A DNA stretch of 38,347 bases from a virus, in the IMG/VR virus record IMGVR_UViG_3300045988_153982, positions 1 through 38,347 of that record. One strand, written 5' to 3'. Within the stretch, counting starts at the first letter, position 1, and every line of letters starts with the position of its first letter. A program made the translations under genes and the position numbers. Shown piece by piece: positions 526 to 38,347 of the stretch. The notes under the pieces are model-generated. The model did no database searches. It was not told the origin of the DNA and saw only the letters and a program-made list of their open reading frames with translations.

Positions 526-747
526 ATGAAATGGTATTTAATACAAAGCAAACCAGATGACTATAATAATAGAAATGTTGCAATAATTTCTTCAAAGAAA
601 CCAATACACAAGTATGTATATAGTGCAAAAGAAATTGATAAACATGAATTTTATATATTTAGCAAATATTTTGATGAAATAATAGAAAATGAAATTGTAA
701 AAGAATATCATATAACATTAGCAGAATATTTAGAGAATTGTTTTTAG
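526..747 (+). CDS. Hypothetical small protein
   Basis: ORF with GAGAG RBS, tightly packed on the + strand. Confidence 0.45.
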   Translation: MKWYLIQSKPDDYNNRNVAIISSKKPIHKYVYSAKEIDKHEFYIFSKYFDEIIENEIVKEYHITLAEYLENCF

Positions 748-1995: not shown

Positions 1996-2001
1996 TATAA
2001 T
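1973..2001 (+). promoter_or_regulatory. Sigma-A-like promoter TTGCAA-N17-TGaTATAAT (extended -10)
   Basis: ttgcaa at 1973..1978, 17-nt spacer ending tgtga, tataat at 1996..2001. The TGA stop of the upstream gene forms the TG extension. Same architecture at 29584..29612 and 28761..28789. Confidence 0.5.
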
Positions 2002-2483
2002 TAATGCGGTGGGAAAAGTTTTTTACAATTTATTTACGTGTTACCTTTATAGGTAGCATAGAATAGATATATAACCTGTGTTGTATCTTAAAGTTATTGA
2101 AAGATAAAAACTATTGCAATAGTTATATCTATTCTATGGTGCTTATAAAAAGCACTAAACACTCCATATAGAACTCAGGGGTTTTTGGAGGTTATTATCT
2201 CCACATTATTGGAATGTTGCACCTAACACTATCTTAACAGGTAGTGTACTGATGATATATAAAAAACAAGACAGAGGTTTTTAACATATTAAATTATGGT
2301 TTTATACTCAACCGTCCTAGTAACTCTAGTGAAAAAAACTTATAGAGTATTGGTGAACTTTGACACCTATATCATTAGTGCAGTATCTATTAAAGATACA
2401 ATTGTAATCATAGTAAGATTTTTATTGGGGCTACTCTGGGCGACCTTATGAGTAGATAATAGGCTGTCAACCTAAAATTGAAT

Positions 2484-2507
2484 GGTGGTTCGAGTCCACC
2501 CACTTGC
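2484..2507 (+). other. tRNA-like T-arm element (ggtgg-ttcgagt-ccacc plus 7 nt) with no matching 5' acceptor strand
   Basis: Perfect 5-bp stem and canonical TTCGAGT T-loop seen in the sequence. No complementary gcaagtg within 150 nt upstream, so it is not a full tRNA. Confidence 0.35.
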
Positions 2508-2613
2508 TAAAAACATAATAATTAAGTATAATTTGACACATTAGAAAGGTTATTGTTGTTGATAGTGTATGTGAAGTGTGTTTGGCTAACATACCCCTGA
2601 TGTATTTGAAATT

Positions 2614-2640
2614 AAGCAACCTTAAATGGTTGTTTTTTTG
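2614..2640 (+). terminator. Rho-independent terminator
   Basis: gcaacc-ttaaat-ggttgt hairpin followed by a T7 run. Confidence 0.55.
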
Positions 2641-2669
2641 TGGCTTATTTAATAAAAAATAAATAAAAA

Positions 2670-2726
2670 CAGATACCCTATCTATACCCTATCTATACCG
2701 TAGGTATACATCTGTATCTGTATATA
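2670..2726. repeat. Iteron cluster (GATACCC/TATACCC/GGTATAC cores, tandem taccctatctat x2, tctgta x2). Second copy of the origin repeats found inside the replisome-organizer gene.
   Basis: Shares tctataccctat (12 nt) and atacatctgtatctgtat (18 nt) with 24294..24347. Confidence 0.55.
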
Positions 2727-2815
2727 TATATTATTTATTATTATTTATATTAATTATTATTAAATATATTATTAAAATAAATGTATATAATTTATAAATT
2801 TTAAATATTTTTTTG
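2727..2815. promoter_or_regulatory. Very AT-rich tract flanking the iterons (candidate DNA-unwinding element)
   Basis: About 90 nt of near-pure A/T (tatatatatattatttattattatttatattaattattattaaatat...). Confidence 0.4.
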
Positions 2816-2820
2816 TAATT

Positions 2821-2849
2821 TTGACAAGAATAAAAAGTTGTGGTATACT
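2821..2849 (+). promoter_or_regulatory. Consensus sigma-A promoter TTGACA-N17-TATACT upstream of the scaffold/capsid genes
   Basis: ttgaca at 2821..2826, 17-nt spacer, tatact at 2844..2849. Confidence 0.65.
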
Positions 2850-2910
2850 TTTAACTAGATATTAAATCTAGTTGGAGTAGACCAACGAAAAAAATCTAGG
2901 AGGAGATATT

Positions 2911-18491: not shown

Positions 18492-18568
18492 GTACCGTTG
18501 ACGAAGTGGTTTAACGACAATGTCTGCAAAACATTGATACACAGGTTCAAATCCTGTACGGTACTCCA
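18492..18568 (+). tRNA. tRNA-Cys (anticodon GCA at 18526..18528) with encoded 3' CCA
   Basis: Perfect 7-bp acceptor stem gtaccgt/acggtac. T-arm acagg-ttcaaat-cctgt. Anticodon stem caatgt/acattg with 7-nt loop cTGCAaa (U33 and A37 present). Discriminator t then cca. The D-arm pairing is weak. Confidence 0.65.
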
Positions 18569-21242: not shown

Positions 21243-21365
21243 ATGATATTGATACATGTTAAAATTGATGAAAGCTTAAAAAAACAACTTGAAGAAGAAG
21301 CAAAAGCCAAAGGGCTTTCATTAAACGCTTACATTAGAATGCTTTTAATTGAAAGGAAAAAGTAA
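21243..21365 (+). CDS. Ribbon-helix-helix (CopG/Arc-like) small DNA-binding protein, 40 aa
   Basis: AAGGAGG RBS. MILIHVKIDESLKKQLEEEAKAKGLSLNAYIRMLLIERKK has beta-strand / helix / helix RHH architecture. Below the ORF-track cut-off. Confidence 0.5.
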   Translation: MILIHVKIDESLKKQLEEEAKAKGLSLNAYIRMLLIERKK

Positions 21366-21366
21366 A

Positions 21367-22794
21367 ATGACTTTAGAAGAAGTTAAGCAAGAATTAAGAG
21401 TATTTGATAAGTTTAAATTTTTTGAAGATGACCATCATTATGAATGTAATAGTAAAAGAGTTGGAATTAGTGTTACGAGATTAATTGAAGAATATAGTAA
21501 TCCATTTGACCAACAAGCAATTGCTGAAAAAGTGGCAATAAGAGATAATAAAAGTGTTAGTGAAGTTCTTGAAGAATGGGAATATAAAAACAAATTTGCT
21601 TGTGTGAAAGGTAGTACTTGCCACGAATATGCACAAAGTATCTGGAGTGGCGAAGAATATAATGAATTATTATTTGATGGCAGTATTGAATATTTAACTG
21701 CAGTAAATAAAATTCAAAGTCAAGCAATGAATTTTTGGAAAGATTTTAAAGATAAATTCATTCATATTCAAGATGAACAACTTGTTGGCAGCGAAGAATA
21801 TGATATTTGTTCGGCAGTAGACCATTTATTCCTTGATAAAGAAGGTAATGTTTGGTTAATAGACTACAAAACAAATAGTATTCTTAAAGGTTACAATGAT
21901 GATGAAAAAAATCGAAGATATACTAAAAAAATGCTTATTCCATTGCAAAATTTAAAAGATGATGCACTTCATCACTATTATTTACAATTAAGTATTTATA
22001 AATATTTAATTGAAAAATATACGAATATAAAAATTTATAAAACAATGATTGTCTATATGAGTGAAAATATTAAAAAATATGAACTTATTGAAACAACATA
22101 TTTAATGAAAGAAGTAGAATTAATATTAGAAAATAGGAGGGAAAGAAAAATGGGAAAATGTATTCCAATATTAATTATCGGGCATTCTGGGAGTGGTAAG
22201 AGTGCTAGCTTGAGAAATTTAAGCAAAGATGATTATTCTTTAGTAAATCCACTTGCAAAAAGATTACCTTTTAAAGGAGGACAAGCAGGGCTTGAAAGTT
22301 GTGATTATGAATTAATCAAAAAATTTATTCAAGAAACGCCAAAAAATATTATAGTAATAGATGATAGTAATTATTTGCTTACTATTGAAATGATGAAAAA
22401 AGCAAAAGAAACAGGTTATGGCAAGTTTACAGATATTGCTTTAAATTATTGGAAATTAATTGAATTTATTAAAAATCTTGATGGAGATAAAAGAGTTTAT
22501 TTAATGAGCCATGAAGAAATTGATGAATTTGGAAATGTTGGGGTTAAGACAGTTGGCAAAATGTTATCAAATCAATGTTGCGTTGAAGGACTTTACACAA
22601 TAGTCTTAAGAGCTATTAATGAAAATGGCAAGTTCCAATTTAGAACTAAAACGGCAGGCAATGATATTGTAAAATCACCTATGGGAATGTTTGAAGATGA
22701 ATTGATTGATAATGATTTAAAATTAGTAGATGATACTATTTGTGAATATTATGAAATAAAAAAAGAAAAAAAGAAAGGTGAAGAAAATAAATAA
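21367..22794 (+). CDS. Fusion protein: N-terminal RecB-family PD-(D/E)xK nuclease plus C-terminal P-loop ATPase (AAA_24/Sak4-like RecA-fold)
   Basis: Nuclease motifs: VDHLF (D), LIDYKT (D/ExK), QLSIY (QxxxY). ATPase motifs: GHSGSGKS Walker A, IIVIDDSNY Walker B. An in-frame AGGAGG-N9-ATG at 22135..22152 allows separate initiation of the ATPase part. Confidence 0.65.
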   Translation: MTLEEVKQELRVFDKFKFFEDDHHYECNSKRVGISVTRLIEEYSNPFDQQAIAEKVAIRDNKSVSEVLEEWEYKNKFACVKGSTCHEYAQSIWSGEEYNELLFDGSIEYLTAVNKIQSQAMNFWKDFKDKFIHIQDEQLVGSEEYDICSAVDHLFLDKEGNVWLIDYKTNSILKGYNDDEKNRRYTKKMLIPLQNLKDDALHHYYLQLSIYKYLIEKYTNIKIYKTMIVYMSENIKKYELIETTYLMKEVELILENRRERKMGKCIPILIIGHSGSGKSASLRNLSKDDYSLVNPLAKRLPFKGGQAGLESCDYELIKKFIQETPKNIIVIDDSNYLLTIEMMKKAKETGYGKFTDIALNYWKLIEFIKNLDGDKRVYLMSHEEIDEFGNVGVKTVGKMLSNQCCVEGLYTIVLRAINENGKFQFRTKTAGNDIVKSPMGMFEDELIDNDLKLVDDTICEYYEIKKEKKKGEENK

Positions 22795-22997
22795 TGATAA
22801 GATTAAAAACAAAATTTGATGTAAGAAAAGATGAAACACCCGTAAAATTAATGGCAATAAATTCTTGCGCATATGAACATATAGTCGCAATTGCGTATTT
22901 AGTTAAAAGTATAAAAGATAATGATGAAACAATAACTAAAAAAGAATTAATAAAAAATGTAGAAGATTTAATGAAAATAATAGAAGGAGAAAAATAA
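22794..22997 (+). CDS. Hypothetical protein (67 aa)
   Basis: ATGA-coupled. Confidence 0.35.
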   Translation: MIRLKTKFDVRKDETPVKLMAINSCAYEHIVAIAYLVKSIKDNDETITKKELIKNVEDLMKIIEGEK

Positions 22998-22998
22998 T

Positions 22999-23604
22999 AT
23001 GATAAAAAAACCAAGTAATTATGATAAAGTAGAAGTAATGGAGTTTGATTTTACACCTATTGAACTAGGTGGCCACAAATTAGTGATAAAAAAGGCGGAA
23101 GAATATACAAGTGAGCAAAGTGGAAAATTAAGTTTAAAAGTTTACGTAGATACAGCTTCAGATGATAAACAACCAGAATATTTTGCAGAACAATATAGAA
23201 ATGATACAAGACCTGACAGAAGATGGAGCAATTCAGCTATAAAATATATTTCTTTAGGAGAAGAAGAAAATCAAGTTAGAATGCTTAAAGGGTTTATAAC
23301 CGCATATGAAAATTCAAATAATTGTGAGTTTGATTGGTCAAAAGACTGGGCGCAACTTACAAATAAAAAAATCGGTGGAGTATTTGGTATGGAAGAATAT
23401 GAAGATGCTGAAGGCAAATTAAGAACTAATAATAAATTAAGAGATTTTAGAAGTTTAGATAAAGTAGATAATATTAAAATTCCTAAAGTAAAATTATTGG
23501 ATGGAAGTTATGTTGAATATGATGAATATGTAAAAAATAACGCAAATACAAGTCAAGAAAAAAACGATGAAATAGTGATTGATGCACTTGAATTGCCATT
23601 CTAA
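22999..23604 (+). CDS. DUF669-family protein (SSB-like partner of Sak4-type recombinases)
   Basis: N-terminal EFDFTPIELGGHKLVIKKAEEYTSEQSGKLSLKVYV resembles the DUF669 signature. GGAGAA RBS. Confidence 0.5.
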   Translation: MIKKPSNYDKVEVMEFDFTPIELGGHKLVIKKAEEYTSEQSGKLSLKVYVDTASDDKQPEYFAEQYRNDTRPDRRWSNSAIKYISLGEEENQVRMLKGFITAYENSNNCEFDWSKDWAQLTNKKIGGVFGMEEYEDAEGKLRTNNKLRDFRSLDKVDNIKIPKVKLLDGSYVEYDEYVKNNANTSQEKNDEIVIDALELPF

Positions 23605-29641: not shown

Positions 29642-31198
29642 GTGGCTAACATAGACAATCTAGTGTCTTTAGCAGATAGAACACAACAAGAACGCAACGA
29701 AATAGCCAGAAAGGGTGCAATTGCTAGTAATAAAGTACAAAAAGAGAAGAAAACAATGCGAAAAGAGTTAGAACTTTTATTAGAAGCCGAAGCAAAAAAT
29801 GGCAAGACCTATCAAGAGAACATAACACTTGCACTAATGGGTAAGGCAATAAAAGGCGACACAAAAGCTTATGAAATTATCAGGGATACAGCAGGACAAA
29901 ACCCCGATAAGATTAAAGATGAAGTTGAAAAAGTAGAACAGATAATTCAAATACCAGCAAAAGACATCGCAAAGTGTTTTGTTGATATAAACAGAAGTAT
30001 AGACGATAGAGAATATAGAGAATATTTTTTAGAGGGCGGCCGTGGTAGCACAAAGTCATCTTTCATAAGTGAAAAGGTAATAGAGTTATTAGAAAACAAC
30101 CCTAAAATGTGTTGTGTTGTATTAAGAAAAGTAAAAGACACTTTAAAAGATAGTGTGTTTGCACAATTAGAGTGGGCTATTGATACTTTGGCTGAAACAT
30201 ATCCAACTATAAAGAAAGATTATAAATTAACTAAAATCCCTATGGAAATAACAAAACTAAGCACAGGGCAAAAGATATTCTTTAGAGGTGCTGATGATTA
30301 TGGTAAAATTAAGTCATTAAAAACGCCAAAGGATATGTATGTAGGTATAACTTGGTATGAAGAGTTCGACCAGTTTGCTGGTATGTTAGAAGTTCGTAAA
30401 ATAAATCAGTCATTAATTCGTGGTGGCGATGATTATATACAATTTTATTCATACAATACACCACCTAGCAAACAACACTTTGTCAACATTGAAAAGAGAA
30501 TACCTAAGCCATCAAGGCTTGTTAATTTAAGTGATTATAGAGATGTTCCTAAAAAGTGGCTAGGGCAAGCATTTATTGATGAAGCTGAGTTCTTAAAAGA
30601 AATAAATGAAAAAGCATATGAAAATGAATATTTAGGAATAGAAACAGGAATTGGCGGAAATGTATTTGAAAACCTTGAAATAAGAGAAATAACTAACGAA
30701 GAGATAGAAACATATGATTATATTTATATGGGGCTTGACTTCGGATGGTACCCAGACCCTTTGGCTTGGACTAAAATGTGTTATAATCCAGCACAAGGAG
30801 CATTATATATCTTTGATGAGTTTTTAGTAAACAAAATGAGTAATGCTGATGTTTGGGATTATTTAGTTGAGAACAAAGGCGTTACTACTGATGACATGAT
30901 AATTGCAGATAGCGCTGAGCCAAAGTCAATAGGCGATTTTAAAAGTTATGGTGCATTAATAAAAGGTGCTGAAAAAGGACCTGAAAGTGTCAAGTATTCT
31001 ATGAAGTGGTTATCTAGTTTAGCAAAGATAGTTATAGACCCTGTGAGATGCCCTAAAACAATGCAAGAATTTAGCAATTATGAATATGAACAAGACAAAG
31101 ATGGTAATTGGATAAGTGGTTATCCAGATGAAAACAACCATACAATAGATAGTGTAAGATATGCTCTTAACAAGATTTGGAAAAAGAAAGGAGAATAA
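29642..31198 (+). CDS. Terminase large subunit (PBSX/XtmB-like) with about 125-aa N-terminal extension, GTG start
   Basis: FLEGGRGSTKSS Walker A. C-terminal nuclease region with IADSAEP and YPDENNHTIDSVRY. GAGGTGG RBS 4 nt before GTG. Confidence 0.85.
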   Translation: MANIDNLVSLADRTQQERNEIARKGAIASNKVQKEKKTMRKELELLLEAEAKNGKTYQENITLALMGKAIKGDTKAYEIIRDTAGQNPDKIKDEVEKVEQIIQIPAKDIAKCFVDINRSIDDREYREYFLEGGRGSTKSSFISEKVIELLENNPKMCCVVLRKVKDTLKDSVFAQLEWAIDTLAETYPTIKKDYKLTKIPMEITKLSTGQKIFFRGADDYGKIKSLKTPKDMYVGITWYEEFDQFAGMLEVRKINQSLIRGGDDYIQFYSYNTPPSKQHFVNIEKRIPKPSRLVNLSDYRDVPKKWLGQAFIDEAEFLKEINEKAYENEYLGIETGIGGNVFENLEIREITNEEIETYDYIYMGLDFGWYPDPLAWTKMCYNPAQGALYIFDEFLVNKMSNADVWDYLVENKGVTTDDMIIADSAEPKSIGDFKSYGALIKGAEKGPESVKYSMKWLSSLAKIVIDPVRCPKTMQEFSNYEYEQDKDGNWISGYPDENNHTIDSVRYALNKIWKKKGE

Positions 31199-31200
31199 TT

Positions 31201-31707
31201 ATGGAAATAGTATATAAGAAAGTAAATGATTTAATACCATATGAAAACAACCCTAGAATTAATGATGAAGCAGTTGAATATGTTAAAAATTCAATAAAAG
31301 AATTTGGATTTAAAGTACCTATTGTAATTGATAAAAATAATGTAATTGTAGCAGGGCATACTAGACTAAAAGCAAGTTTAGAATTAGGTTATAAAGAGGT
31401 GCCTTGTATAATTGCTGATGATTTATCAGAAGAACAAGTAAAAGCATTTAGATTAGCAGATAATAAAATTAGTGAAAAATCACAATGGGATTTTAGCAAA
31501 TTAGATGAAGAATTAGATAGCATTTTAGATATTGATATGAGCATGTTTGATTTTATTGAAAATGAAATAGACTGGGATAATGTTGATGATTTAACTGAAG
31601 AAACATACGATAAACCTGAACATAATATGCTAGAATGCCCTAATTGTCATCATATTGATAGAGATATACATTTTAAAAAAGTGAATGGAGTAGAAGATGA
31701 AAATTAA
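31201..31707 (+). CDS. ParB/Srx-fold N-terminal-domain protein (DpdB-like candidate)
   Basis: AAGGAG RBS. ...VPIVIDKNNVIVAGHTRLKASLELGYKEVPCIIAD resembles the ParB box II (GERRxRA) region. Confidence 0.6.
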   Translation: MEIVYKKVNDLIPYENNPRINDEAVEYVKNSIKEFGFKVPIVIDKNNVIVAGHTRLKASLELGYKEVPCIIADDLSEEQVKAFRLADNKISEKSQWDFSKLDEELDSILDIDMSMFDFIENEIDWDNVDDLTEETYDKPEHNMLECPNCHHIDRDIHFKKVNGVEDEN

Positions 31708-31719
31708 AACTTCATTCAA

Positions 31720-32490
31720 ATGAAGATATTTTTAAGTGCAATAGAAAACGCTCAAGCAAGTGGCAAAGGCGGTAAACCTGTGGCGCAAATAATGATTGAA
31801 AAAGGAATAAAATTGCAATATAATTTAATGTCATATTTTTATATAAAAAACAAAACAACATTAGCAGAAATGATAAGAGATAATTCTGAATGTATATTGA
31901 TAGACAGTGGTGCTCATAGTTTTCAAAAAGGAAAGAAAGTAGATTGGGTTGATTATACAAAAAAATATGCGCAATTTATAAAAGAATTTGATAAGCCAAA
32001 TGTTATAGGTTACTTTGAAATGGATGTAGATAATATTATTGGGTATGACAAAGTATTAGAATTAAGAAAAATTCTTGAAAGTGTATCAAGCAAAATTATA
32101 CCAGTATGGCACAAAAATAGAGGGATAGAAGAATTTAAAAAGATGTGCCATGATTATCAAAATAAAGTAATTGCAATAACAGGTTTTAAAAATGAAGATA
32201 TAAAAGATGAGCAATATTTAATGTTTTTAAAGTATGCCAAAAAGTATAATTGCAAAGTGCATTGCTTAGGAATGACAAGAAAAAAAGTATTGGATAAAGT
32301 ACCGTTTGATTATGTGGATAGTAGTAGTTGGGTACAATCAACAGTATTTGGTAGAATAGATGGAAAAGGCAAGGTAACGAAAAATTTTAGTAAAACAAAT
32401 AGAGAAATGGTGTTTATACAAAATTATTTAGAAGCTAAAAAAATGCAAGAATATTACTATCAAAAATGGAAAAAAATATGCAAAGATTAA
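31720..32490 (+). CDS. tRNA-guanine-transglycosylase-like protein (DpdA-family candidate, 7-deazaguanine DNA transglycosylase)
   Basis: ILIDSGAHSFQKG parallels TGT [IL]LTDSGG[YF]Q. HCLGMTRKKVLDKVPFDYVDSSSW parallels TGT LMGVG.P...MFDCV.PTR / archaeal FDSAxY. No Zn-binding C-terminal domain. Weak RBS, and the start codon lies in a cttcat-tcaa-atgaag hairpin. Confidence 0.65.
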   Translation: MKIFLSAIENAQASGKGGKPVAQIMIEKGIKLQYNLMSYFYIKNKTTLAEMIRDNSECILIDSGAHSFQKGKKVDWVDYTKKYAQFIKEFDKPNVIGYFEMDVDNIIGYDKVLELRKILESVSSKIIPVWHKNRGIEEFKKMCHDYQNKVIAITGFKNEDIKDEQYLMFLKYAKKYNCKVHCLGMTRKKVLDKVPFDYVDSSSWVQSTVFGRIDGKGKVTKNFSKTNREMVFIQNYLEAKKMQEYYYQKWKKICKD

Positions 32491-32535
32491 GTAGTTAACC
32501 AAAACCTACTTTAAAAAAATTAAGGAGATGATAAA

Positions 32536-33195
32536 ATGAATATTTTATTAGGGATAATAGGAATAGTTTTATGTTTTGGAATAGAAGTGTTAATTGAAAA
32601 AATATTTAAAAAAGAAGGATTATATGCATGGATAAGTGTGACATTAGTTACAGCAAATATATTAGTTGCTAAAAATATTGATATATTAGGTTTGCAAGCA
32701 ACATTAGGAAACATATTGTTTGCAAGTACATTTTTAGCGACAGACATATTAAGTGAAAAATATGGTACTAAAGAAAGCAAAAAAGCAGTGAATATTGGTA
32801 TTGTATCAGTTATCTTATTCACAGTAGCAACACAGTTTAGTTTATTATTTAAATCAAATGAAATTGACTTAGTAAATGACAGTTTGAAAAATTTATTTTC
32901 TTTAAATTTGAGAATAAGTGTTTCTAGCATATTAATGTGTTATTTAAGTAATATGATAGATATAGTTTTATTTGAGAAAATCAAGAAGAAGATACCTAAC
33001 AAGTTATGGTTAAGAAATAACATAGCGACAATAACAAGCAATTGTTTAGAAAATTATTTATTTACAATATTTGCATTCATAGGTATTTATGATTTAGGAA
33101 CAATATTCTCTATTGCTACAACTACAACAATATTAGAAATTATAATAGCAATATGTGATACACCATTCTTATATTTAAGCAAAAAATTAAAATAA
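32536..33195 (+). CDS. YhhQ/VUT-family (DUF165) queuosine-precursor transporter-like membrane protein
   Basis: AAGGAG RBS. Six predicted TM helices. NILFASTFLATDILSEKYG matches E. coli YhhQ FPFIFLATDLTVRIFG. SNCLENYLFTIFAF matches GNVSDTLAFFFIAF. Confidence 0.7.
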   Translation: MNILLGIIGIVLCFGIEVLIEKIFKKEGLYAWISVTLVTANILVAKNIDILGLQATLGNILFASTFLATDILSEKYGTKESKKAVNIGIVSVILFTVATQFSLLFKSNEIDLVNDSLKNLFSLNLRISVSSILMCYLSNMIDIVLFEKIKKKIPNKLWLRNNIATITSNCLENYLFTIFAFIGIYDLGTIFSIATTTTILEIIIAICDTPFLYLSKKLK

Positions 33196-33242: not shown

Positions 33243-34643
33243 ATGCTACAAAATATATTTTTGTGGATTATGGAACATATCTTTAAAATTAAAACACAGA
33301 CTACACCAGATGTGGTTAGTCAAAACAATGATTATCAAAGGGAATACGAGCGAATAGACCAAATTAACTTTACTTCAATATTTGCTAACAAAATATCTAA
33401 TTATGTGGCAAACGATAGCAATATTGATGTTACTGGAACGAGTGAAAGAGCAAAGTATTTCAATGAAATTGCACAAAGTATGAAAAGGAAATTAAAAAAG
33501 ATTTCGTCAACAATTTTAGGAGTTGGAGGTATTGCAATAGTTCCTTATGTTAAAAAAGGAAAAATATATTACAATATTGTTCCACAAAATAGGGTTTTAA
33601 TTGATGAAAAGACTGGTGACTTAATCACTGGGGCGACTATTCTTGCAGAAAGCAAGGTTGTAAGTGATTTAGTTAGCCAAAAAATTTATTACAGGTGGAC
33701 TAATTATCAAATAAGAAATAACAACTTGATTATTCAACAAAAGTTTACTGATGAAAATGGAAATGAGTTAAAAGATACACCTGAATTTTGGGCTGGAGTT
33801 CAAACGATATTAAGCATTAGCAATGTTGACAGAGTTCCGTTTGCTTTTGTAATAAGCCCTATAAATAATAGAAAACCAAGTGATGACTACGGAGTGCCTA
33901 TCACTTATGGTTGTGACGAAACAATAACAGAAATAAAAGAGTGCTTAAAGCAAATAGTTAGAGAATTTAAAGTAAAAGAAACATTCATTGGCGTTGACTA
34001 CTCAATGTTTAAAAAAGACAAAAATGGACATTGGGAATTGCCGGAGGATGGACTTTACAAAAAGTTCAATAGTGATAAAGATGACTTTTGGGAAGTATTT
34101 AGCCCAGAAATAAGACAAAGTTCTTATTATGAAAGATTAAGGGAATTGTATTCAAGACTTGAAAAAGAAATTGGAACAAGTGCAGGAATACTAACTGAAA
34201 TAGAAACAGCGAATGCGACTGCAACTGCTATTAAAAGGGCATTGTATGATACTTTAACAATAGTAGATGATTTAAGAGATAACCTAGAACAAGGCTTTGA
34301 TGATTTCTTTAAGGCCTGCGATGTTCTAACAAATGCTTATAATGTTGTTCCAAGCGGTACTTTTGAATTATCTTACGATTGGGATTTATCTTTACTTGAA
34401 GAACCGCAAGAAACATATAACCAATATGTACAAGGTTTAAGTCAAGGCGTTGTTAAGAAAGAAGAACTAAGGCAATTCATATTTAGCGATGAAACACTAG
34501 AAGAAAGCAAAAAGGCTATTGAAGAGATAGAAGAAGAAACACCTAGTGTTGATAAGTTGCTTGATGATGAAGAAGATAATGCTGATAATAACAAAGATAA
34601 GCAGGATGATAAGAAAAACAAAGAAAATGAAGAGAAAGAGTAA
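33243..34643 (+). CDS. Portal protein (SPP1 gp6-like)
   Basis: AAGGAGAG RBS. 466 aa with a strongly acidic C-terminus. Located after the terminase region. Confidence 0.6.
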   Translation: MLQNIFLWIMEHIFKIKTQTTPDVVSQNNDYQREYERIDQINFTSIFANKISNYVANDSNIDVTGTSERAKYFNEIAQSMKRKLKKISSTILGVGGIAIVPYVKKGKIYYNIVPQNRVLIDEKTGDLITGATILAESKVVSDLVSQKIYYRWTNYQIRNNNLIIQQKFTDENGNELKDTPEFWAGVQTILSISNVDRVPFAFVISPINNRKPSDDYGVPITYGCDETITEIKECLKQIVREFKVKETFIGVDYSMFKKDKNGHWELPEDGLYKKFNSDKDDFWEVFSPEIRQSSYYERLRELYSRLEKEIGTSAGILTEIETANATATAIKRALYDTLTIVDDLRDNLEQGFDDFFKACDVLTNAYNVVPSGTFELSYDWDLSLLEEPQETYNQYVQGLSQGVVKKEELRQFIFSDETLEESKKAIEEIEEETPSVDKLLDDEEDNADNNKDKQDDKKNKENEEKE

Positions 34644-34658
34644 AATCTTTCTTTTTTT
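34634..34658 (+). terminator. Rho-independent terminator overlapping the portal stop
   Basis: gaaag-agtaaaat-ctttc hairpin followed by a T7 run. Confidence 0.5.
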
Positions 34659-34688
34659 GCTATAAATTTAAAAAATGTTAATTTAGTA

Positions 34689-34717
34689 TTGACAAAGTAA
34701 ATATAATATAGTATAAT
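34689..34717 (+). promoter_or_regulatory. Consensus promoter TTGACA-N17-TATAAT driving the SSB/small-protein block
   Basis: ttgaca at 34689..34694, 17-nt spacer, tataat at 34712..34717. Confidence 0.7.
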
Positions 34718-34748
34718 TAAAGTATAAATTGAAAAGGAGAGATGAAAG

Positions 34749-35099
34749 ATGTTAAATCAATTAACATTAGTTGGTCGTTTAGTTTCAGACCTTCAAATAA
34801 ATGAAACTGAAAATGGAAGAAAGGTTTGCACTATTATATTAGCAGTATCACGAAGTTATAAAAATGAACAAGGTATTTATGAAACTGATTTTATACCAGT
34901 TACGCTATGGACCAGCATTGCTGGAAATACAATAAATTATTTTAAAAAAGGTAATTTAGTAGGAGTTAGAGGAAAATTAGAAAGTTCAATAACTACTGAT
35001 GATAACCATACAATAGAAGAGAATAAAAGATTAAAGTTAAGAGTTGTTGCAGAAAAAGTAACTTTCTTGTCTAATAAATCTAATAAAGAAGAAGAATAA
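34749..35099 (+). CDS. ssb: Single-stranded DNA-binding protein (OB-fold) lacking the canonical DDDIPF tail
   Basis: MLNQLTLVGRLVSDLQ...DFIPVTLWTSIAGNTINYFKKGNLVGVRGKLES aligns with B. subtilis SSB MLNRVVLVGRLTKDPEL...[33 protein letters not shown]. Ends ...NKSNKEEE. Confidence 0.85.
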   Translation: MLNQLTLVGRLVSDLQINETENGRKVCTIILAVSRSYKNEQGIYETDFIPVTLWTSIAGNTINYFKKGNLVGVRGKLESSITTDDNHTIEENKRLKLRVVAEKVTFLSNKSNKEEE

Positions 35100-35182
35100 A
35101 ATCTTTTTCTCAATGTAGCCATTGACTGTTGCAAGCCAGTATTAAAAATGTAGAGCATAGAAAATATGAAAAGGAGAATAAA

Positions 35183-35335
35183 ATGAAAGAAAACAAAACA
35201 AGAAAAACACATACATTTGATAAGAAAGTGTATGCTGAATTTCAAAAATATGCTAGTAGTATAGGCAGAAGTGTATCTTCATTAATAGAACAATTTATGA
35301 GAGAAACACTTAAAGAAATGAAAAAGGAGAAATAA
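35183..35335 (+). CDS. Putative RHH/Arc-like small DNA-binding protein (start trimmed to ATG after AAGGAG)
   Basis: ORF-track 35129..35335. KTHTFDKKVYAEFQKYASSIGRSVSSLIEQFMRE has strand-helix-helix architecture. Confidence 0.45.
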   Translation: MKENKTRKTHTFDKKVYAEFQKYASSIGRSVSSLIEQFMRETLKEMKKEK

Positions 35336-35340
35336 GAATA

Positions 35341-35657
35341 ATGGATAAAGAAAATATATTATATTATCAATCCAACATAAAAACATCAAGAAATGAAGAT
35401 AGTGTATATGCTATGAAGTATGCTAGTCAGCAAATGTTAATAGATAAATTAGAACAAAACTGCAAAAAGCAAAAAAAGTTATTGATAAGTTGGAATTAGA
35501 GAATAAACAACTAAAAGATAAACTATCTAAAATAGAAACATTAATAATAAACCATAATTGTGATACTGGTGATATTTATTATAAGTATAATAGCAAATTT
35601 TTAAAAAGTGAATTAAAACAAAGAATATTAGAGATAGTATATGAGGTGTCAGAATGA
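35341..35657 (+). pseudogene. Coiled-coil protein gene interrupted by a 1-nt frameshift in an A7 homopolymer (35471..35477)
   Basis: Frame 0 from ATG 35341 stops at 35497. The -1 frame continues from the A-run as VIDKLELENKQLKDKLSKIETLIINHNCDTGDIYYKYNSKFLKSELKQRILEIVYEVSE and ends with ATGA coupling to the next gene. Each piece is below the ORF-track cut-off. Confidence 0.4.
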
Positions 35658-35995
35658 GTAAAATTTGTGGATATAGTTGTGAACATAATAAAAGTGGTGT
35701 TTGTCAAATATCAGTATGTAGTAAAAAATCAAATATGAAAGATAAAACGGAAACAGAGTTATTTAGAGAAACTTGGTATGAGATAAGTCAAATACGACAA
35801 TTACAACAAGAAAATAAACAATTAAAAGATAATTGGAATAAGTTAAAAGAATATATAAAAGAAACTAAGTTAAAGGAATTTGAAAAATCATATGGTAAAA
35901 GATATGGAAAAACATTTACACAAGCAGAAATAATTGTGTGTAATATGATTTTAAATAAAATGCTAGAAATAGAAGGAAGTGATAGTGATGAATGA
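35654..35995 (+). CDS. Zn-ribbon plus coiled-coil protein
   Basis: N-terminal CGYSCEHNKSGVCQISVC cysteine cluster followed by heptad repeats. Confidence 0.45.
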   Translation: MSKICGYSCEHNKSGVCQISVCSKKSNMKDKTETELFRETWYEISQIRQLQQENKQLKDNWNKLKEYIKETKLKEFEKSYGKRYGKTFTQAEIIVCNMILNKMLEIEGSDSDE

Positions 35996-36182
35996 AGATT
36001 TAATAACAATGACTGTTAATCAAAAAACAAATGCTATAGATTTATATAATTTTATACAAAGATGTCTTCCGTTTGATACAGTAATAGAATTATACAAATT
36101 AATTCAATACAAATTAATTAATTTAGATGATGAACCTTATAATTATTGTAATTTGGCGAAGAAAGTAGAGAGTGATGAGTAA
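35979..36182 (+). CDS. Hypothetical protein (67 aa)
   Basis: ORF. Start uncertain (alternative ATG at 35988). Confidence 0.35.
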   Translation: MIVMNEDLITMTVNQKTNAIDLYNFIQRCLPFDTVIELYKLIQYKLINLDDEPYNYCNLAKKVESDE

Positions 36183-36431
36183 ATGACAGCTAAAGAAATG
36201 TTTGAAAATTTAGGTTTTTATTATGAAGAAAGAGCATATGGCTTTAGTTATGATGCTTATGATAGTGAAAGCGGTTGGCTAAGGTTTGTTGCCTTTGATA
36301 TTAAAAATAAAACTGTTGAAATACATAGAGTTAATATTTATTGGAATTATGAAACTAAATATACAAAACATACTCGTTTAGACAAAGCAATAAATAAACA
36401 AATAGAAGAATTAAGGTGGAATAAATGCTAA
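36183..36431 (+). CDS. Hypothetical protein (82 aa)
   Basis: TAAATG coupling. Confidence 0.4.
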   Translation: MTAKEMFENLGFYYEERAYGFSYDAYDSESGWLRFVAFDIKNKTVEIHRVNIYWNYETKYTKHTRLDKAINKQIEELRWNKC

Positions 36432-36715
36432 CATTACCGATTAAGAAAAAATGGTTTGACATGATAAAGTCAGGCGAAAAGAAAGAAGAATATAGAGAAA
36501 TTAAACCTTATTATGATAGCAGATTTTTGAAATCAATAGAAGATAAAAGACCTCATACAAATATTATATTATTTAGAAATGGTTATGGTAAAAATAAGCC
36601 TACTTTAAAATGTGAAGTGATTATTTCAAAAGGTTATGGCAAAGAAGAATGGGGAGCAGAGCCTAACAAAATGTATTATGTATTAAGAATATTAGATATG
36701 GAGGAGATTAAATAA
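36425..36715 (+). CDS. ASCH-domain protein (PUA-like)
   Basis: LPIKKKWFDMIKSGEKKEEYREIKPY fits the ASCH N-terminal signature (...I..G.K..E.R). Confidence 0.55.
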   Translation: MLTLPIKKKWFDMIKSGEKKEEYREIKPYYDSRFLKSIEDKRPHTNIILFRNGYGKNKPTLKCEVIISKGYGKEEWGAEPNKMYYVLRILDMEEIK

Positions 36716-37351
36716 ATGAGTATAGAAGAATTAGCATTTAAAGATAGGAAAATTTTAGCAAATTTAAACGCAATAGATTTATTAGATATAATAGAGTTTT
36801 TACAAGAAGATAGAAATCAATGGATTAATCAGTTTACTAAAACTCATAATGAAGGTGTTGAAATTCAAAAAGAAAATCAAGAATTAAAAGAAGCATTAGA
36901 AGCAAAATCATATTGTAAATATGCTAATAAATGTGATGAATTTGATGATTGCTCTAAAGAAGAGTATGAAATTATGGCAATTGAAAATATAAAATTAAGT
37001 ATTGAAAATCAAGAATTAAAATCGCAATTATCTGGCACTACCCATTGTTTTGATGAAGAAGAACATAGAGTATTAAAGAAACAACTTGAAGAAATAAACA
37101 AATTTGTATGTAAATGTGGTTTTGCGAATATAGAACAAGTTATGCTTAATTATTGTGGCTTGTTAACTCAACAAAAAGAGTTTATAAAGTATTTAGAAAA
37201 TGAAATTAAAGAAATAGAAAAAACAATTGAATTATTGAGTGATACAGGAAGTTGCAGAATACCAAATTTGCAATATAAAAAACATATTTTAGAAGAGACT
37301 TTACAAAAATATAAAGAAATAACTCAGACAAAAAATAATAATTCTGTCTGA
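36716..37351 (+). CDS. Coiled-coil protein with Cys motifs (CKYANKCDEFDDC, CKCGF)
   Basis: ATGA coupling. 211 aa. Confidence 0.45.
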   Translation: MSIEELAFKDRKILANLNAIDLLDIIEFLQEDRNQWINQFTKTHNEGVEIQKENQELKEALEAKSYCKYANKCDEFDDCSKEEYEIMAIENIKLSIENQELKSQLSGTTHCFDEEEHRVLKKQLEEINKFVCKCGFANIEQVMLNYCGLLTQQKEFIKYLENEIKEIEKTIELLSDTGSCRIPNLQYKKHILEETLQKYKEITQTKNNNSV

Positions 37352-37372
37352 GTCAAAAGAAAGAGTGACAAA

Positions 37373-37813
37373 ATGGCGGATACGAATAAAAGAGTAAAAA
37401 CTATAAATTATACTTGTAATGGAAATTGTTCTGGATGTGGAAATTGCTGTGGAGATATTTTACATCTATCTAAAAATGAAATAAAGAGAATAGCTAAGTA
37501 TGTAAAACAAAATAAAATTAAAGCTACGCCAAGAAATATTCTAGTAGCTTATGATAATACTTGCCCATTTAGAGATAATGCAAACAAAAAATGCAAAATC
37601 TATGAAGTAAGACCAGATATTTGTCGAGTATTCAAGTGTGATAAAACCCCAGAAGAAGTGTATAGAAACAGAGAATTTAATAATGGGAAAAAACTACCAA
37701 GAAGTATGCGAAATTTATTTTACAATGATAGTTCAGGTGCAAAATGGTTATTTGAGAACTTTGGTAGATTAATTTATGATAAAAATGATAAAGCAATAGG
37801 AGTATCAGAATGA
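37373..37813 (+). CDS. YkgJ-family (PF03692, CxxCxxCC) putative Zn/Fe-S protein
   Basis: NGNCSGCGNCCGD plus CPF...CKIYEVRPDICRVFKC fit the YkgJ/UPF0153 cysteine pattern. Confidence 0.65.
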   Translation: MADTNKRVKTINYTCNGNCSGCGNCCGDILHLSKNEIKRIAKYVKQNKIKATPRNILVAYDNTCPFRDNANKKCKIYEVRPDICRVFKCDKTPEEVYRNREFNNGKKLPRSMRNLFYNDSSGAKWLFENFGRLIYDKNDKAIGVSE

Positions 37814-38109
37814 AACTAATTAAAAATTGGCAAGAATTATCAAAAGTACTAGCAAATGGTAAATACAAAATTATAGTGTGTGATTGTTGTGGTTGGATAG
37901 TTCCAATTTGTGATGTACCTGATGAAGATAATTTTACTTGTAATTGTCCTGAAATGACTACAAAAGAATATTTTGAAAAACATATATACTTATCAACTCA
38001 TACTTTTTATGGTAAACGTTACAAACATTCTACTGAATTATTACAAAAATATGGTTTTGATATAGAAATAGATAATTGGGATAAAGAAATAATAGGAGAT
38101 GATAAATAA
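37810..38109 (+). CDS. Cys-rich small protein (CDCCGW...CD...CNCPE)
   Basis: ATGA coupling. Possible zinc-binding. Confidence 0.4.
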   Translation: MKLIKNWQELSKVLANGKYKIIVCDCCGWIVPICDVPDEDNFTCNCPEMTTKEYFEKHIYLSTHTFYGKRYKHSTELLQKYGFDIEIDNWDKEIIGDDK

Positions 38110-38347
38110 TGATAAAAGTAACATTTGAAAAAGATTATAGCAAAGATTTTAATATTAAATTTTATGGATTAATACAACTTAATATTGTTTATGATAATGG
38201 AAAAGTAGTATCAATCAAAGAAAAAAAGAAAGCAAAAGAATTAGTTGAAGAAATAACAAAGTTTAAAGAATTTTATGACATAAAAACTGATGATGTCATA
38301 ACTATAATTGATATGTATTTTGCTAATTATTTTAATATAGAATACAT
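38109..38347 (+). CDS. Hypothetical protein CDS running off the window end. Completes at 138 via the terminal repeat (about 86 aa in total).
   Basis: ATGA overlap with the upstream stop. Frame is continuous into the repeat and on to TAG at 136..138. Confidence 0.5.
   Translation, partial: MIKVTFEKDYSKDFNIKFYGLIQLNIVYDNGKVVSIKEKKKAKELVEEITKFKEFYDIKTDDVITIIDMYFANYFNIEY
38229..38347. repeat. Second copy of the terminal direct repeat (equals 1..119)
   Basis: Identical sequence to the window start. Confidence 0.95.

What the first reader, a model, noticed from the sequence alone, without database searches (positions are those of the whole stretch)
34689..38347. Promoter-driven block of about 12 small genes (SSB without acidic tail, RHH, Zn-ribbons, ASCH, YkgJ-family, Cys-rich proteins) between portal and head-morphogenesis genes: candidate host-takeover / anti-defence island
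In SPP1-like phages the portal gene is directly followed by the gp7-like gene. Here a terminator and a perfect TTGACA-N17-TATAAT promoter follow the portal, and about 4.3 kb (continuing through the window end into 1..747) of tightly coupled small ORFs intervene. The SSB (34749..35099) has a clear OB-fold but ends ...NKSNKEEE without the DDDIPF client-interaction tail. At least five products carry Cys clusters (35654, 36716, 37373 YkgJ CxxCGxCC, 37810 CDCCGW), and one is an ASCH (PUA-like, RNA-binding) protein. A separately transcribed block of small, metal-binding or nucleic-acid-binding proteins is the typical context for anti-restriction, anti-CRISPR or other immune-evasion genes.
Basis: inference. 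Interest (0 to 1): 0.6.

Follow-up and report, generated by a model that had tools for sequence, protein, structure and literature searches.

The report
Swappable accessory-gene cassette in phage head module
An uncultured human-gut phage carries, wedged between two head-assembly genes, a 4.2-kb exchangeable cassette of small genes with its own promoter and a small repressor-type regulator; this layout is typical of phage counter-defence loci, but nothing here shows that these particular genes block host immunity.

Summary
The window is a complete circular 38,228-bp phage genome. Between the portal gene (33243..34643) and the gp7-like minor head gene (766..1995) lie a weak hairpin with a U-tract, the genome's only perfect TTGACA-N17-TATAAT site, and 13-14 tightly packed small ORFs.

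Comparison with about ten related contigs shows a hypervariable slot. It is empty in more distant relatives and in C. difficile phage phiCD38-2. In siblings with 92-96% identical portals it holds 4 to 16 different genes. The hairpin, the promoter and an Arc/CopG-type RHH gene recur as the fixed left end, even behind an unrelated portal (L017). Some cargo patches are 97-98% identical while the flanks are 84-93%.

In one structurally unrelated phage (L015), four of the cargo genes sit in the same order in the ordinary early region.

- **Supported calls:** tail-less SSB, RHH, ASCH-like fold, CxxCxxCC protein.
- **Unsupported call:** zinc ribbons.

No cargo protein matched an anti-defence, takeover or defence family in Pfam, PHROGs or PADLOC. 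A sibling slot does carry an orphan adenine methyltransferase.

**Verdict:** a mobile, self-promoted, probably RHH-regulated accessory operon. An anti-defence role is plausible but unproven. It is a new member of a known kind.

The parts
33243..34643 (+). Portal gene, the conserved left flank of the slot
   Evidence: phrog_533, E 1.2e-50. Siblings are 92-96% identical in protein and 89-93% in DNA.
34629..34660 (+). Hairpin plus U-tract (GAAGAGAAAGA-GUAAAA-UCUUUCUUUUU UU). It is a weak intrinsic-terminator-like element and the conserved left junction of the cassette.
   Evidence: Fold energy -10.7 kcal/mol, z -2.5. The core GAGAAAGAGTAAAATCTTTCTTTTT is identical in W, L002, L009, L007, L001 and L018, and also lies behind an unrelated portal in L017.
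34689..34717 (+). Sigma-A-type promoter-like site, TTGACA-N17-TATAAT
   Evidence: The only 12/12 site in the genome. Hexamers are kept in L002, L009, L007 and L018 (TTGACG in the last two). Different promoter-like sites occupy the same position in L001 (TTGCAT-17-TATAAT) and L017 (TTGACT-17-TATAAT).
34749..35099 (+). g01: short SSB (116 aa), OB-fold, no C-terminal IPF-type tip
   Evidence: PF00436, E 4.5e-23. phrog_44, E 9.8e-27. Best solved relatives are Firmicutes SsbA/SsbB. 398 homologues, nearly all of the listed ones 98-128 aa.
35183..35335 (+). g02: Arc/CopG-type ribbon-helix-helix protein (50 aa; the ORF also opens at TTG 35129). Candidate autoregulator of the cassette.
   Evidence: phrog_3180 Arc-like repressor, E 1.2e-9. 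Pfam RHH_5 scores 22 bits, below its 26-bit cut-off. It is 50 aa in L007, L009, L018 and L020. It is the most widely kept gene of the slot.
35341..35657 (+). g03/g04: one 105-aa gene split into 52-aa and 55-aa ORFs by a 1-nt shorter poly-A tract (35471..35477)
   Evidence: Intact in L020, A8 versus A7. The C-terminal half is 89-98% identical in L002 and L015. No family hit.
35654..35995 (+). g05: 113 aa, N-terminal Cys cluster plus coiled-coil segment (QQENKQLKDNWNKLKEY)
   Evidence: No significant family. Partial homologues in L007, L018 and L017 have a variable N-terminus.
35988..36182 (+). g06: 64 aa, acidic, unknown
   Evidence: No family hit. The gene caller also gives 64 aa in L020/L021.
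36183..36431 (+). g07: 82 aa, unknown
   Evidence: 96% identical in L007; the DNA is 98% identical there, more than the flanks.
36425..36715 (+). g08: 96 aa, ASCH-like (PUA-like fold) protein
   Evidence: phrog_625, E 3.6e-19. More than 4,400 homologues with invariant G17-x-K19-x-x-E22-x-R24. Model pLDDT 87; the best solved match is the ASCH protein 3iuw (prob 1.0, E 0.018, TM 0.5-0.59). Pfam ASCH is below its cut-off.
36716..37351 (+). g09: 211 aa, acidic coiled-coil protein, 8 Cys that are mostly not conserved
   Evidence: No family hit. Partial homologues in L001, L007, L018 and L015.
37320..37355 (.). Strong 14-bp hairpin at the g09/g10 junction. On the + strand it has no U-tract.
   Evidence: The scan found it as a minus-strand terminator-like site. 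Not followed up.
37373..37813 (+). g10: 146 aa CxxCxxCC (YkgJ/UPF0153-type) metal-cluster protein
   Evidence: PF03692, E 8.1e-12, 46 bits against a 23-bit cut-off. phrog_32498, E 1.5e-25. 90% identical in the early region of the unrelated phage L015.
37810..38109 (+). g11: 99 aa, Cys-rich (CDCCGW...C...CNC), unknown
   Evidence: No family hit. 79% identical in the L018 slot.
38109..38347 (+). g12: 85 aa, unknown. It runs across the circle junction and ends at 138 in window coordinates (120..138 after the 119-nt overlap).
   Evidence: No family hit.
149..520 (+). g13: 123 aa, acidic (pI 4.5), two SH3-like barrels. After the RHH gene it is the most widely shared cargo gene.
   Evidence: About 1,400 homologues, none with a Pfam domain among the 120 listed. 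Model pLDDT 86.7; best match is the 53BP1 tandem Tudor domains, TM about 0.45. Homologues in L001, L007, L010, L017, L018 and L015.
526..747 (+). g14: 73 aa, unknown, the last cargo gene
   Evidence: 97% identical in L017, whose minor head protein is only 23% identical.
766..1995 (+). Minor head protein (SPP1 gp7-like), the conserved right flank. It starts 18 nt after g14 with no terminator between.
   Evidence: PF06152, E 2.7e-54. 84-88% DNA identity in siblings.

Best explanation
The region is a horizontally exchangeable accessory operon sitting in a recombination hot spot between the portal and minor-head-protein genes of an uncultured low-G+C gut Firmicutes siphophage.

**Layout**
- The fixed left end is a weak hairpin/U-tract, then a host sigma-A-type promoter, and near it a 50-aa Arc/CopG-type ribbon-helix-helix gene.
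- Downstream follows a variable array of small, translationally coupled genes. Here these are a tail-less SSB as lead gene, an ASCH-like protein, a CxxCxxCC metal-cluster protein, a tandem SH3-like acidic protein and eight proteins without any recognisable family.

**Shown**
- The slot, its variability, and the conservation and mobility of the hairpin-promoter-RHH end.
- The domain calls.
- Some of the same cargo genes lie in the ordinary early region of another phage.

**Inferred**
- Host RNA polymerase fires the promoter as soon as the DNA enters the cell.
- The cargo are early-type, dispensable host-interaction or DNA-metabolism helpers, some of which may counter host defences.
- Cargo is swapped between phages by recombination at the conserved left junction and at short, similar gene-junction sequences.
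For: **The slot is an insertion**
- Portal directly abuts or overlaps the gp7-like gene in L011, L015 and phiCD38-2.

**It is hypervariable**
- Siblings with 92-96% identical portals carry 4, 8, at least 11, 14 or 16 different ORFs.
- Flanks are 84-93% identical in DNA. Only patches of the slot align, and some are 97-98% identical.

**The left end is a conserved unit**
- The hairpin is identical in all siblings except L010 (L001, L002, L007, L009, L018), and a promoter-like site follows it in each; the window's own promoter sequence is kept in L002, L009, L007 and L018.
- In L017 it reappears behind a portal with no BLAST similarity, together with an RHH gene (74% identical), g13 (73%) and g14 (97%).
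- L001 has a divergent RHH (41%) and a different promoter carrying an 11/12 palindrome over the -10 element.

**Other support**
- RHH call: phrog_3180, E 1.2e-9.
- Early-type nature of the cargo: g04, g09, g10 and g13 homologues (89, 60, 90 and 71% identical) lie in the same order between Sak4/SSB and the terminase genes in L015. SSB relatives lie beside ERF recombinases.
- Regulatory precedents: Aca14 (PMC13551039) and the p576 Reg RHH (PMC8708921).
- Sibling slots hold an orphan adenine methyltransferase and homing endonucleases.
Against: - No transcript data exist, so promoter activity, timing and RHH repression are all inferred.
- A 12/12 promoter match arises by chance in about 15% of shuffles.
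- No operator shared by all RHH-bearing relatives could be defined in this AT-rich DNA.
- In the window the RHH gene is the second gene, 83 nt behind the SSB gene, not next to the promoter.
- L010 has cargo but no hairpin, promoter or RHH gene, so the regulatory end is not obligatory.
- The operon is not closed at its 3' end and would read into the minor head gene.
- Similar promoters precede late modules.
Confidence: 0.6

Rival explanations
1. This is a dedicated anti-defence island. Most cargo proteins would be inhibitors of host immune systems (restriction, CRISPR, abortive infection). They would be expressed in an immediate burst and controlled by an Aca-like RHH repressor.
For: - Promoter plus RHH plus variable small genes is the acr-aca/Aca14 and p576 establishment layout (PMC13551039, PMC8708921).
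- Turnover among near-identical phages is extreme.
- The L018 slot carries an orphan EcoRI-type adenine methyltransferase (PF13651, E 5.4e-14).
- The neighbouring TerL|portal slot carries DNA-modification cargo: DpdA-like plus YhhQ here, a ParB-methyltransferase fusion in L002.
- Two cargo proteins are strongly acidic, g09 at -13 and g13 at -12 net charge.
Against: - No block protein matches an anti-CRISPR, anti-restriction or other takeover family in Pfam or PHROGs.
- The main text of the EVADES survey of 268 anti-defence proteins does not mention ASCH, SSB, Tudor or zinc.
- g08, g13 and the SSB belong to large, well-conserved families of about 4,400, 1,400 and 400 members. In the families examined, members lie in ordinary early regions. 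That fits general phage physiology better than fast-evolving inhibitors.
Confidence: 0.25
2. This is a displaced piece of the ordinary early replication/recombination region. The SSB and its followers would be DNA-metabolism helpers that a rearrangement moved into the head module. Variability would simply reflect the usual mosaicism of dispensable early genes, with no link to immunity.
For: - In L015 the same genes in the same order follow Sak4 (AAA_24) and an SSB and precede the terminase genes.
- The 62-66% identical SSBs in L004 and L006 sit directly upstream of, or one gene from, ERF recombinases.
- The window has its own exonuclease-Sak4 fusion and a second SSB-type protein ending ...ELPF at 21349..23604, so the block SSB could be an auxiliary partner.
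Against: - The slot position recurs behind unrelated portals (L017), with the same hairpin, a promoter at the same place and an RHH gene. That argues for a dedicated insertion module rather than a one-off rearrangement.
- Apart from the SSB, no cargo protein has a replication or recombination domain.
Confidence: 0.2
3. The cargo is largely selfish or neutral. A recombination and homing-endonuclease hot spot would accumulate hitch-hiking small ORFs and gene fragments of little benefit to the phage.
For: - Sibling slots contain an HNH-type gene (L001) and a NUMOD3 homing endonuclease (L018).
- Cargo proteins are mosaics sharing fragments and junction sequences.
- One gene is frameshifted here and, judging from the called genes, in at least one other sample.
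Against: - Most ORFs keep intact reading frames, ribosome-binding sites and start/stop coupling.
- g08 has 28 invariant columns across 49 sequences that are 65-83% identical to it.
- The identical block recurs in several independent gut metagenomes. Both points indicate purifying selection.
Confidence: 0.1
4. The cargo is phage-encoded defence or superinfection exclusion against competing phages, as in the P2/P4 hot spots.
For: Phage hot spots often carry defence systems (10.1101/2024.10.15.618418).
Against: - The ten block proteins scanned, which left out the SSB, the RHH protein, g06 and g12, gave no PADLOC hit apart from one marginal match (CARF, E 0.0027, 15 bits).
- No integrase or repressor module was recognised among the ORFs inspected or scanned, and all genes are on one strand, so long-term residence in a host is unlikely.
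- The proteins are much smaller than typical defence effectors.
Confidence: 0.05

Closest known systems
acr-aca operons, in particular those with the RHH regulator Aca14 (PMC13551039). From my own knowledge, not tested here: the anti-CRISPR loci of Mu-like Pseudomonas phages such as JBD30 lie inside the head-morphogenesis region.
   Same: - A strong constitutive-type promoter.
- A small DNA-binding regulator encoded in the operon.
- Small, variable cargo genes.
- Insertion among conserved structural genes.
- Exchange between related phages.
   Different: - No known Acr or other anti-defence gene is present.
- The RHH gene lies near the 5' end rather than last.
- The operon is far longer, 13-14 genes against 1-4.
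- No inverted-repeat operator over the -10 element could be shown for the main RHH type.
- Sequence relatedness to Aca14 could not be tested because no sequence was available.
Establishment regulon of Bacillus plasmid p576 and the pLS20 clade II plasmids, controlled by the RHH repressor Reg (PMC8708921)
   Same: - A Firmicutes mobile element.
- Strong sigma-A promoters repressed by an RHH autoregulator.
- Highly variable sets of small genes of mostly unknown function.
- Every plasmid there has an anti-restriction or methylase gene, as the L018 slot does.
   Different: - That system is in plasmids, not phages, and forms a multi-operon regulon.
- ArdC is conserved there and absent here.
- Operators flanking the promoters were shown experimentally there and not here.
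Phage diversity hot spots and morons between conserved core genes, for example the P2 old/tin and Z/fun hot spots (iLund4u survey, 10.1101/2024.10.15.618418)
   Same: Conserved flanking core genes, cargo that differs between close relatives, and an own promoter.
   Different: P2 hot spots mainly carry defence systems of a temperate phage. Here the element looks lytic and the cargo is small early-type genes.
Short, tail-less SSBs of Firmicutes such as B. subtilis SsbB (3vdy), and phage SSBs paired with ERF or Sak4 recombinases
   Same: A single OB-fold of about 100-116 aa with no C-terminal protein-interaction tip. The best solved matches are Firmicutes SsbA/SsbB-type proteins, E 1e-15 to 2e-18.
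   Different: Here the gene is detached from any recombinase and leads a cassette inside the head module. The phage also has a second SSB-type protein with an ...ELPF end in its replication module.

Membership tests
Bacterial-type SSB (PF00436) | OB-fold domain matching the SSB profile above the curated cut-off | tested here: met
   81.7 bits against a cut-off of 26, E 4.5e-23, covering residues 2-107. Solved SsbA/SsbB relatives at E about 1e-18.
Bacterial-type SSB (PF00436) | Acidic C-terminal tip ending in I/L-P-F, which recruits partner proteins (canonical replicative SSBs) | tested here: not met
   The protein ends ...FLSNKSNKEEE. Nearly all of the listed homologues are 98-128 aa. It resembles the SsbB-type subclass rather than a replicative SSB.
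ASCH domain (PF04266, PUA-like superfamily) | Profile match above Pfam's gathering score | tested here: not met
   15.5 bits against 21.2, E 0.029, residues 6-31 only. None of the 120 listed homologues has a precomputed Pfam domain.
ASCH domain (PF04266, PUA-like superfamily) | Signature motif GxKxxExR (ASCH superfamily description of Iyer et al. 2006; the motif is recalled from my own knowledge) | tested here: met
   G17-E-K19-K-E-E22-Y-R24. The G, K, E and R positions are invariant in 49 aligned homologues.
ASCH domain (PF04266, PUA-like superfamily) | PUA-like beta-barrel fold resembling solved ASCH proteins | tested here: inconclusive
   Model pLDDT 87.1. The top solved match is 3iuw, an ASCH protein of E. 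faecalis (prob 1.0, but E 0.018, TM 0.47-0.59). YTH, Lon-N and McrB-N folds follow.
CxxCxxCC / YkgJ (UPF0153, PF03692) | Profile match above the cut-off and the CxxCxxCC motif | tested here: met
   46.1 bits against 23, E 8.1e-12, residues 18-90. The motif C19-SG-C22-GN-C25C26 is in the sequence.
Arc/CopG ribbon-helix-helix regulators | Sequence match to RHH families | tested here: inconclusive
   PHROG Arc-like repressor, E 1.2e-9. Pfam RHH_5 scores 22 bits, below its 26-bit cut-off, and DUF6364 scores 23.9 against 27.3.
Arc/CopG ribbon-helix-helix regulators | Binds repeated operator half-sites at its own promoter (autoregulation) | tested here: inconclusive
   The window has an imperfect palindrome, TATAGTATAATTA/TAATTAAAGTATA, over the -10 element. 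L001, with a divergent RHH, has an 11/12 palindrome between -35 and -10. No motif is shared by all RHH-bearing relatives, and the AT-rich background is noisy.
acr-aca type anti-defence operon | Contains at least one gene of a known anti-CRISPR or anti-defence family | tested here: not met
   No such hit for any of the 14 ORFs in Pfam or PHROGs. AntiDefenseFinder and dbAPIS were not available.
acr-aca type anti-defence operon | Own strong promoter plus a co-encoded small DNA-binding regulator | tested here: met
   A 12/12 promoter conserved in relatives, and an RHH gene in most slots. Function is not tested.
acr-aca type anti-defence operon | The regulator belongs to a described Aca family, for example Aca14 | not testable with these tools
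   The Aca14 sequence (WP_005725436.1) is not held in the paper text or supplements available here.
Phage diversity hot spot (variable cargo between conserved core genes) | Conserved flanks, cargo differing among close relatives, and an empty site in some relatives | tested here: met
   Details are in the full report.

The most novel reading that the evidence does not exclude
The hairpin-promoter-RHH unit is a portable 'landing pad'. It would let gut Firmicutes phages plug interchangeable counter-defence genes into the head module and express them in an immediate, self-limiting burst. Several cargo families would then be previously unrecognised immune-evasion proteins: the tail-less SSB as an ssDNA shield or a decoy for SSB-sensing systems, the ubiquitous ASCH-like phrog_625 protein, the CxxCxxCC protein, and the acidic tandem-SH3 protein.
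Probability: 0.25. Interest if true: 0.65.

Novelty: new member of a known kind. Interest (0 to 1): 0.4.

Why it matters
- **A testable regulatory unit.** The work defines a compact unit (hairpin, sigma-A promoter, 50-aa RHH gene) and a precise insertion site for accessory genes. It lies in a group of uncultured human-gut phages whose nearest cultured relative shares only about 27% portal identity.
- **A bait for gene discovery.** If the RHH protein acts like Aca14 or p576 Reg, the unit could be used for guilt-by-association searches for counter-defence genes in low-G+C Firmicutes phages, where few are known.
- **Candidates for functional tests.** Two very large uncharacterised phage protein families stand out: phrog_625 (ASCH-like, about 4,400 homologues) and the g13 family (about 1,400).
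- **As it stands.** This is a well-documented example of a known phenomenon, not a new kind of system.

Tried and rejected
- **Nucleotide search of cultured phages.** blastn of the block against 50,697 phage records gave only an 86-nt match to a Polaribacter phage 'RNA-binding protein' gene. This was not informative.
- **Solved structures by sequence.** Searches with g08 (single sequence and 49-sequence profile) and g10 gave nothing.
- **PADLOC.** No defence-system match.
- **Fold searches of g13.** Only a generic tandem Tudor/KOW-like resemblance (TM about 0.45) and no informative viral match.
- **Operator search.** Repeat finding and 12-mer scanning around the promoter were swamped by AT-rich background.
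- **Aca14 sequence.** Not available, so it could not be compared.
- **Rfam.** The whole genome gave only tRNA-Cys.
- **Assembly chimera.** Rejected, because the same block with the same flanks recurs in independent metagenome assemblies.
- **Functional link to the DpdA/YhhQ module upstream.** Considered for the ASCH-like and CxxCxxCC proteins. No co-occurrence evidence either way: L002 lacks all three, and the DpdA status of L015 is unknown.

Full report
**1. What the window is**

The first and last 119 nt are identical, so the window is a closed circular assembly of 38,228 bp with 27.6% G+C. The record is a k119 metagenome contig. All long ORFs lie on the + strand.

Gene order around the finding is as follows:
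- large terminase, 29642..31198;
- a ParB_N protein, 31177..31707;
- a DpdA-like transglycosylase, 31720..32490 (phrog_887, E 4e-39);
- a Vut_1/YhhQ-type transporter, 32536..33195;
- the portal, 33243..34643 (phrog_533, E 1e-50);
- the block in question;
- the SPP1 gp7-like minor head protein, 766..1995 (PF06152, E 3e-54);
- a 915-nt ORF-free stretch;
- the scaffold and capsid genes.

The nearest cultured phage is C. difficile phage phiCD38-2, with only 27% portal identity. The same phage was assembled from several human-gut metagenomes.

**2. Checking the observation**

The block contains 13-14 ORFs between 34749 and 747, which is 4.2 kb on the circle.
- *Packing.* Genes overlap or are at most 21 nt apart, apart from one 83-nt gap after the SSB gene. 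Every ORF except 35490 has a GGAG-type ribosome-binding site.
- *Split gene.* ORFs 35341 and 35490 are one 105-aa gene. The window has A7 where the sibling L020 has A8.
- *Promoter.* TTGACA-N17-TATAAT at 34689..34717 is the only perfect site in the genome. By itself it is modestly improbable: 0.18 expected, and 15 of 100 shuffles have at least one.
The G+C-demanding scan did not call it.

Domain calls:

| Claim | Result |
|---|---|
| SSB | Firm: PF00436, E 4.5e-23. No acidic IPF tip |
| CxxCxxCC | Firm: PF03692, E 8e-12 |
| RHH | Supported by PHROGs (Arc-like, E 1e-9), below cut-off in Pfam |
| ASCH | Below cut-off in Pfam. GxKxxExR motif invariant in 49 homologues. A confident model (pLDDT 87) best matches the ASCH protein 3iuw, then other PUA-like folds |
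| Zn-ribbons | Not supported. No family matches, and the Cys of 36716..37351 are mostly absent from homologues |

**3. Comparative evidence, the decisive part**

I retrieved related loci with the portal protein and by looking up contigs that encode cargo homologues.

The slot is empty or nearly so in more distant relatives:
- In L011 (portal 52% identical), in L015, and in phiCD38-2, the gp7-like gene directly abuts or overlaps the portal gene.
- L014 has a single 82-aa ORF there.

Among phages whose portals are 92-96% identical to the window's, the slot contents differ:

| Locus | ORFs in slot | Notable content |
|---|---|---|
| Window | 14 | This report |
| L002 | 8 | DUF4406, the same SSB and RHH, then different genes |
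| L001 | 4 | A divergent RHH, homologues of g09 and g13, an HNH-type gene |
| L007 | at least 11 | Contig ends inside the slot |
| L009 | at least 4 | Contig ends inside the slot |
| L010 | 4 | No hairpin, promoter or RHH gene |
| L018 | 16 | EcoRI-type adenine methyltransferase, NUMOD3 endonuclease |

At DNA level the flanks are 84-93% identical. Only patches of the slot align, and several are more similar than the flanks:
- 98.3% for SSB plus RHH against L002;
- 98.1% for g07 against L007;
- 97.3% for g14 against L017.

This indicates recent exchange of individual cassettes.

**4. The fixed left end**

The core hairpin sequence GAGAAAGAGTAAAATCTTTCTTTTT is identical in the window, L001, L002, L007, L009 and L018. 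A sigma-A-type promoter follows it in each:
- TTGACA or TTGACG, then N17, then TATAAT, in four of the relatives;
- TTGCAT-17-TATAAT in L001.

In L017 the terminase and portal show no BLAST similarity to the window's, and the minor head protein is only 23% identical. Yet the same hairpin and a TTGACT-17-TATAAT site sit behind a 41-aa ORF downstream of the portal. They are followed by an RHH gene (74% identical), g13 (73%) and g14 (97%). Hairpin, promoter and RHH gene therefore travel with the cassette rather than with the portal.

The RHH gene is the most widely kept gene of the slot. It is absent from L010 (and from L014, which has a single ORF).

L001 pairs a divergent RHH (41% identical) with a different promoter that contains an 11/12 palindrome overlapping the -10 element. 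That fits regulator-operator co-variation, but it is a single case in AT-rich DNA. I could not define an operator common to the main RHH type.

**5. What the cargo looks like elsewhere**

L015 comes from a Hadza gut metagenome and has structural genes unrelated to the window's. It carries homologues of g04 (89%), g09 (60%), g10 (90%) and g13 (71%) in the same order. They lie in the ordinary early region, between a Sak4-type ATPase with an SSB and the small terminase gene.

The two closest SSB relatives examined for genomic context (62-66% identical) sit directly upstream of, or one gene from, ERF recombinases in temperate phage-sized contigs.

The window also has a regular recombination and replication module:
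- an exonuclease-Sak4 fusion, 21349..22794;
- an SSB-type protein ending ...DALELPF, 22999..23604 (phrog_378);
- a DnaD-like protein;
- a DnaB helicase.

The block SSB is therefore a second, tail-less SSB. The cargo is best described as early-type accessory genes.

Family sizes are large: about 4,400 homologues for g08, 1,400 for g13 and 400 for the SSB. g13 models confidently as two SH3-like barrels, but with only generic Tudor/KOW resemblance.

**6. Bearing on the anti-defence interpretation**

*In favour*
- The layout matches anti-CRISPR operons with Aca repressors, including the RHH-type Aca14 (PMC13551039). It also matches the RHH-controlled establishment genes of plasmid p576 (PMC8708921).
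- Turnover is extreme.
- A sibling slot carries an orphan adenine methyltransferase.
- The adjacent terminase|portal slot is a second hot spot with DNA-modification cargo. It holds DpdA-like plus YhhQ here, a ParB-methyltransferase fusion plus an HNH-type gene in L002, and nothing in L001 and L009. DpdA and YhhQ are discussed in PMC6884629.

*Against*
- No block protein matched an anti-defence or takeover family in Pfam or PHROGs, nor a PADLOC defence model.
- The large families are well conserved and, where context was examined, sit in ordinary early regions.
- Near-consensus sigma-A promoters, mostly with a TG-extended -10, also precede the scaffold/capsid operon (2821), the lysis genes (13964), the terminase gene (29583) and several early units. 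The promoter therefore does not by itself indicate early timing.
- The block runs into the minor head gene after 18 nt with no terminator, so it is not a closed unit.

**7. Conclusion**

The finding is real. It is best explained as a mobile, self-promoted and probably RHH-regulated accessory operon in a recombination hot spot of the head module. A counter-defence role for some cargo is plausible, at roughly one chance in four for the block as a whole, but nothing shows it.

It is a new instance of a known kind of feature. Its value lies in the portable regulatory unit and in the large uncharacterised families it points to.

Noticed in passing
window 31177..33195: A second variable slot lies between the large terminase and portal genes. 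Here it holds a ParB_N protein, a DpdA-like transglycosylase (phrog_887, E 4e-39) and a Vut_1/YhhQ-type transporter (PF02592, E 4e-35). That suggests 7-deazaguanine DNA modification using a salvaged precursor. In L002 the slot holds a ParB-methyltransferase fusion plus an HNH-type gene. In L001 and L009 terminase and portal are adjacent (background in PMC6884629).
   Followed up: partly
window 1996..2910: A 915-nt ORF-free region lies between the minor head gene and the scaffold gene. Two conserved, mutually complementary boxes (about 2238..2258 and 2370..2392) close a long helix around a variable insert (-44.3 kcal/mol, z -4.4). The boxes recur in L019 and, in part, in L010 (box B also in L017), and in the unrelated phage L015 next to two tRNAs. 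A degenerate tRNA-like element at 2430..2508 (Rfam tRNA 18 bits, E about 1) is 88.6% conserved in L014. No Rfam family matches.
   Followed up: partly
window 35471..35477: A poly-A tract is one base shorter (A7) than in the sibling L020 (A8). This splits a 105-aa gene into 52-aa and 55-aa ORFs. Judging from the called genes (a 52-aa ORF followed by an uncalled gap), the split form also occurs in an independent sample (L022). It may therefore be a real polymorphism or a slippage site rather than an assembly error.
   Followed up: partly
window 1..119 and 38229..38347: The two ends are identical (119 nt), the signature of a circular k119 assembly. The true genome is 38,228 bp, and ORF 38109.. 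continues to 138.
   Followed up: yes
window 21349..23604: The replication module has an exonuclease-Sak4 fusion (phrog_298 plus phrog_2872, E 2e-72). It also has a 201-aa SSB-type protein (phrog_378, E 2e-5) that ends ...DALELPF, a tip like the partner-binding end of canonical SSBs. The phage thus has two unrelated SSB-type proteins, and only this one has a tail.
   Followed up: partly
window 35640..36190, 37795..37815 and related loci: Cargo genes share short junction sequences: GAGGTGTCAGAATGA, GGAGTATCAGAATGA and GAAGTGATAGTGATGA. These give C-termini such as ...VSE...SDSDE and ...ESDE. The genes also share recurring coiled-coil segments (ENKQLKD...). Different proteins share fragments. 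These look like recombination linkers for cassette shuffling.
   Followed up: partly
L002 11398..11760: In this sibling a DUF4406 gene (PF14359, E 2e-9) is inserted into the 3' end of the portal gene. The last 20 or so nt of the original portal end, plus the hairpin, are preserved downstream of the insert. This marks the junction as an insertion point.
   Followed up: partly
window 2821, 13964, 18572, 19183, 19394, 21191, 23655, 28761, 29583: Near-consensus sigma-A-type promoter-like sites (10-11 of 12 matches, nearly all with a TG-extended -10) sit in almost every intergenic gap, including those ahead of late modules. The phage may rely on host sigma-A throughout infection.
   Followed up: partly
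window 37320..37355: A 14-bp hairpin lies at the end of g09. The scan called it a terminator only on the minus strand, which has no genes. On the + strand it lacks a U-tract.
   Followed up: no
window 18492..18568: A tRNA-Cys (GCA) gene lies between the lysis/tail region and an HNH endonuclease gene.
   Followed up: no
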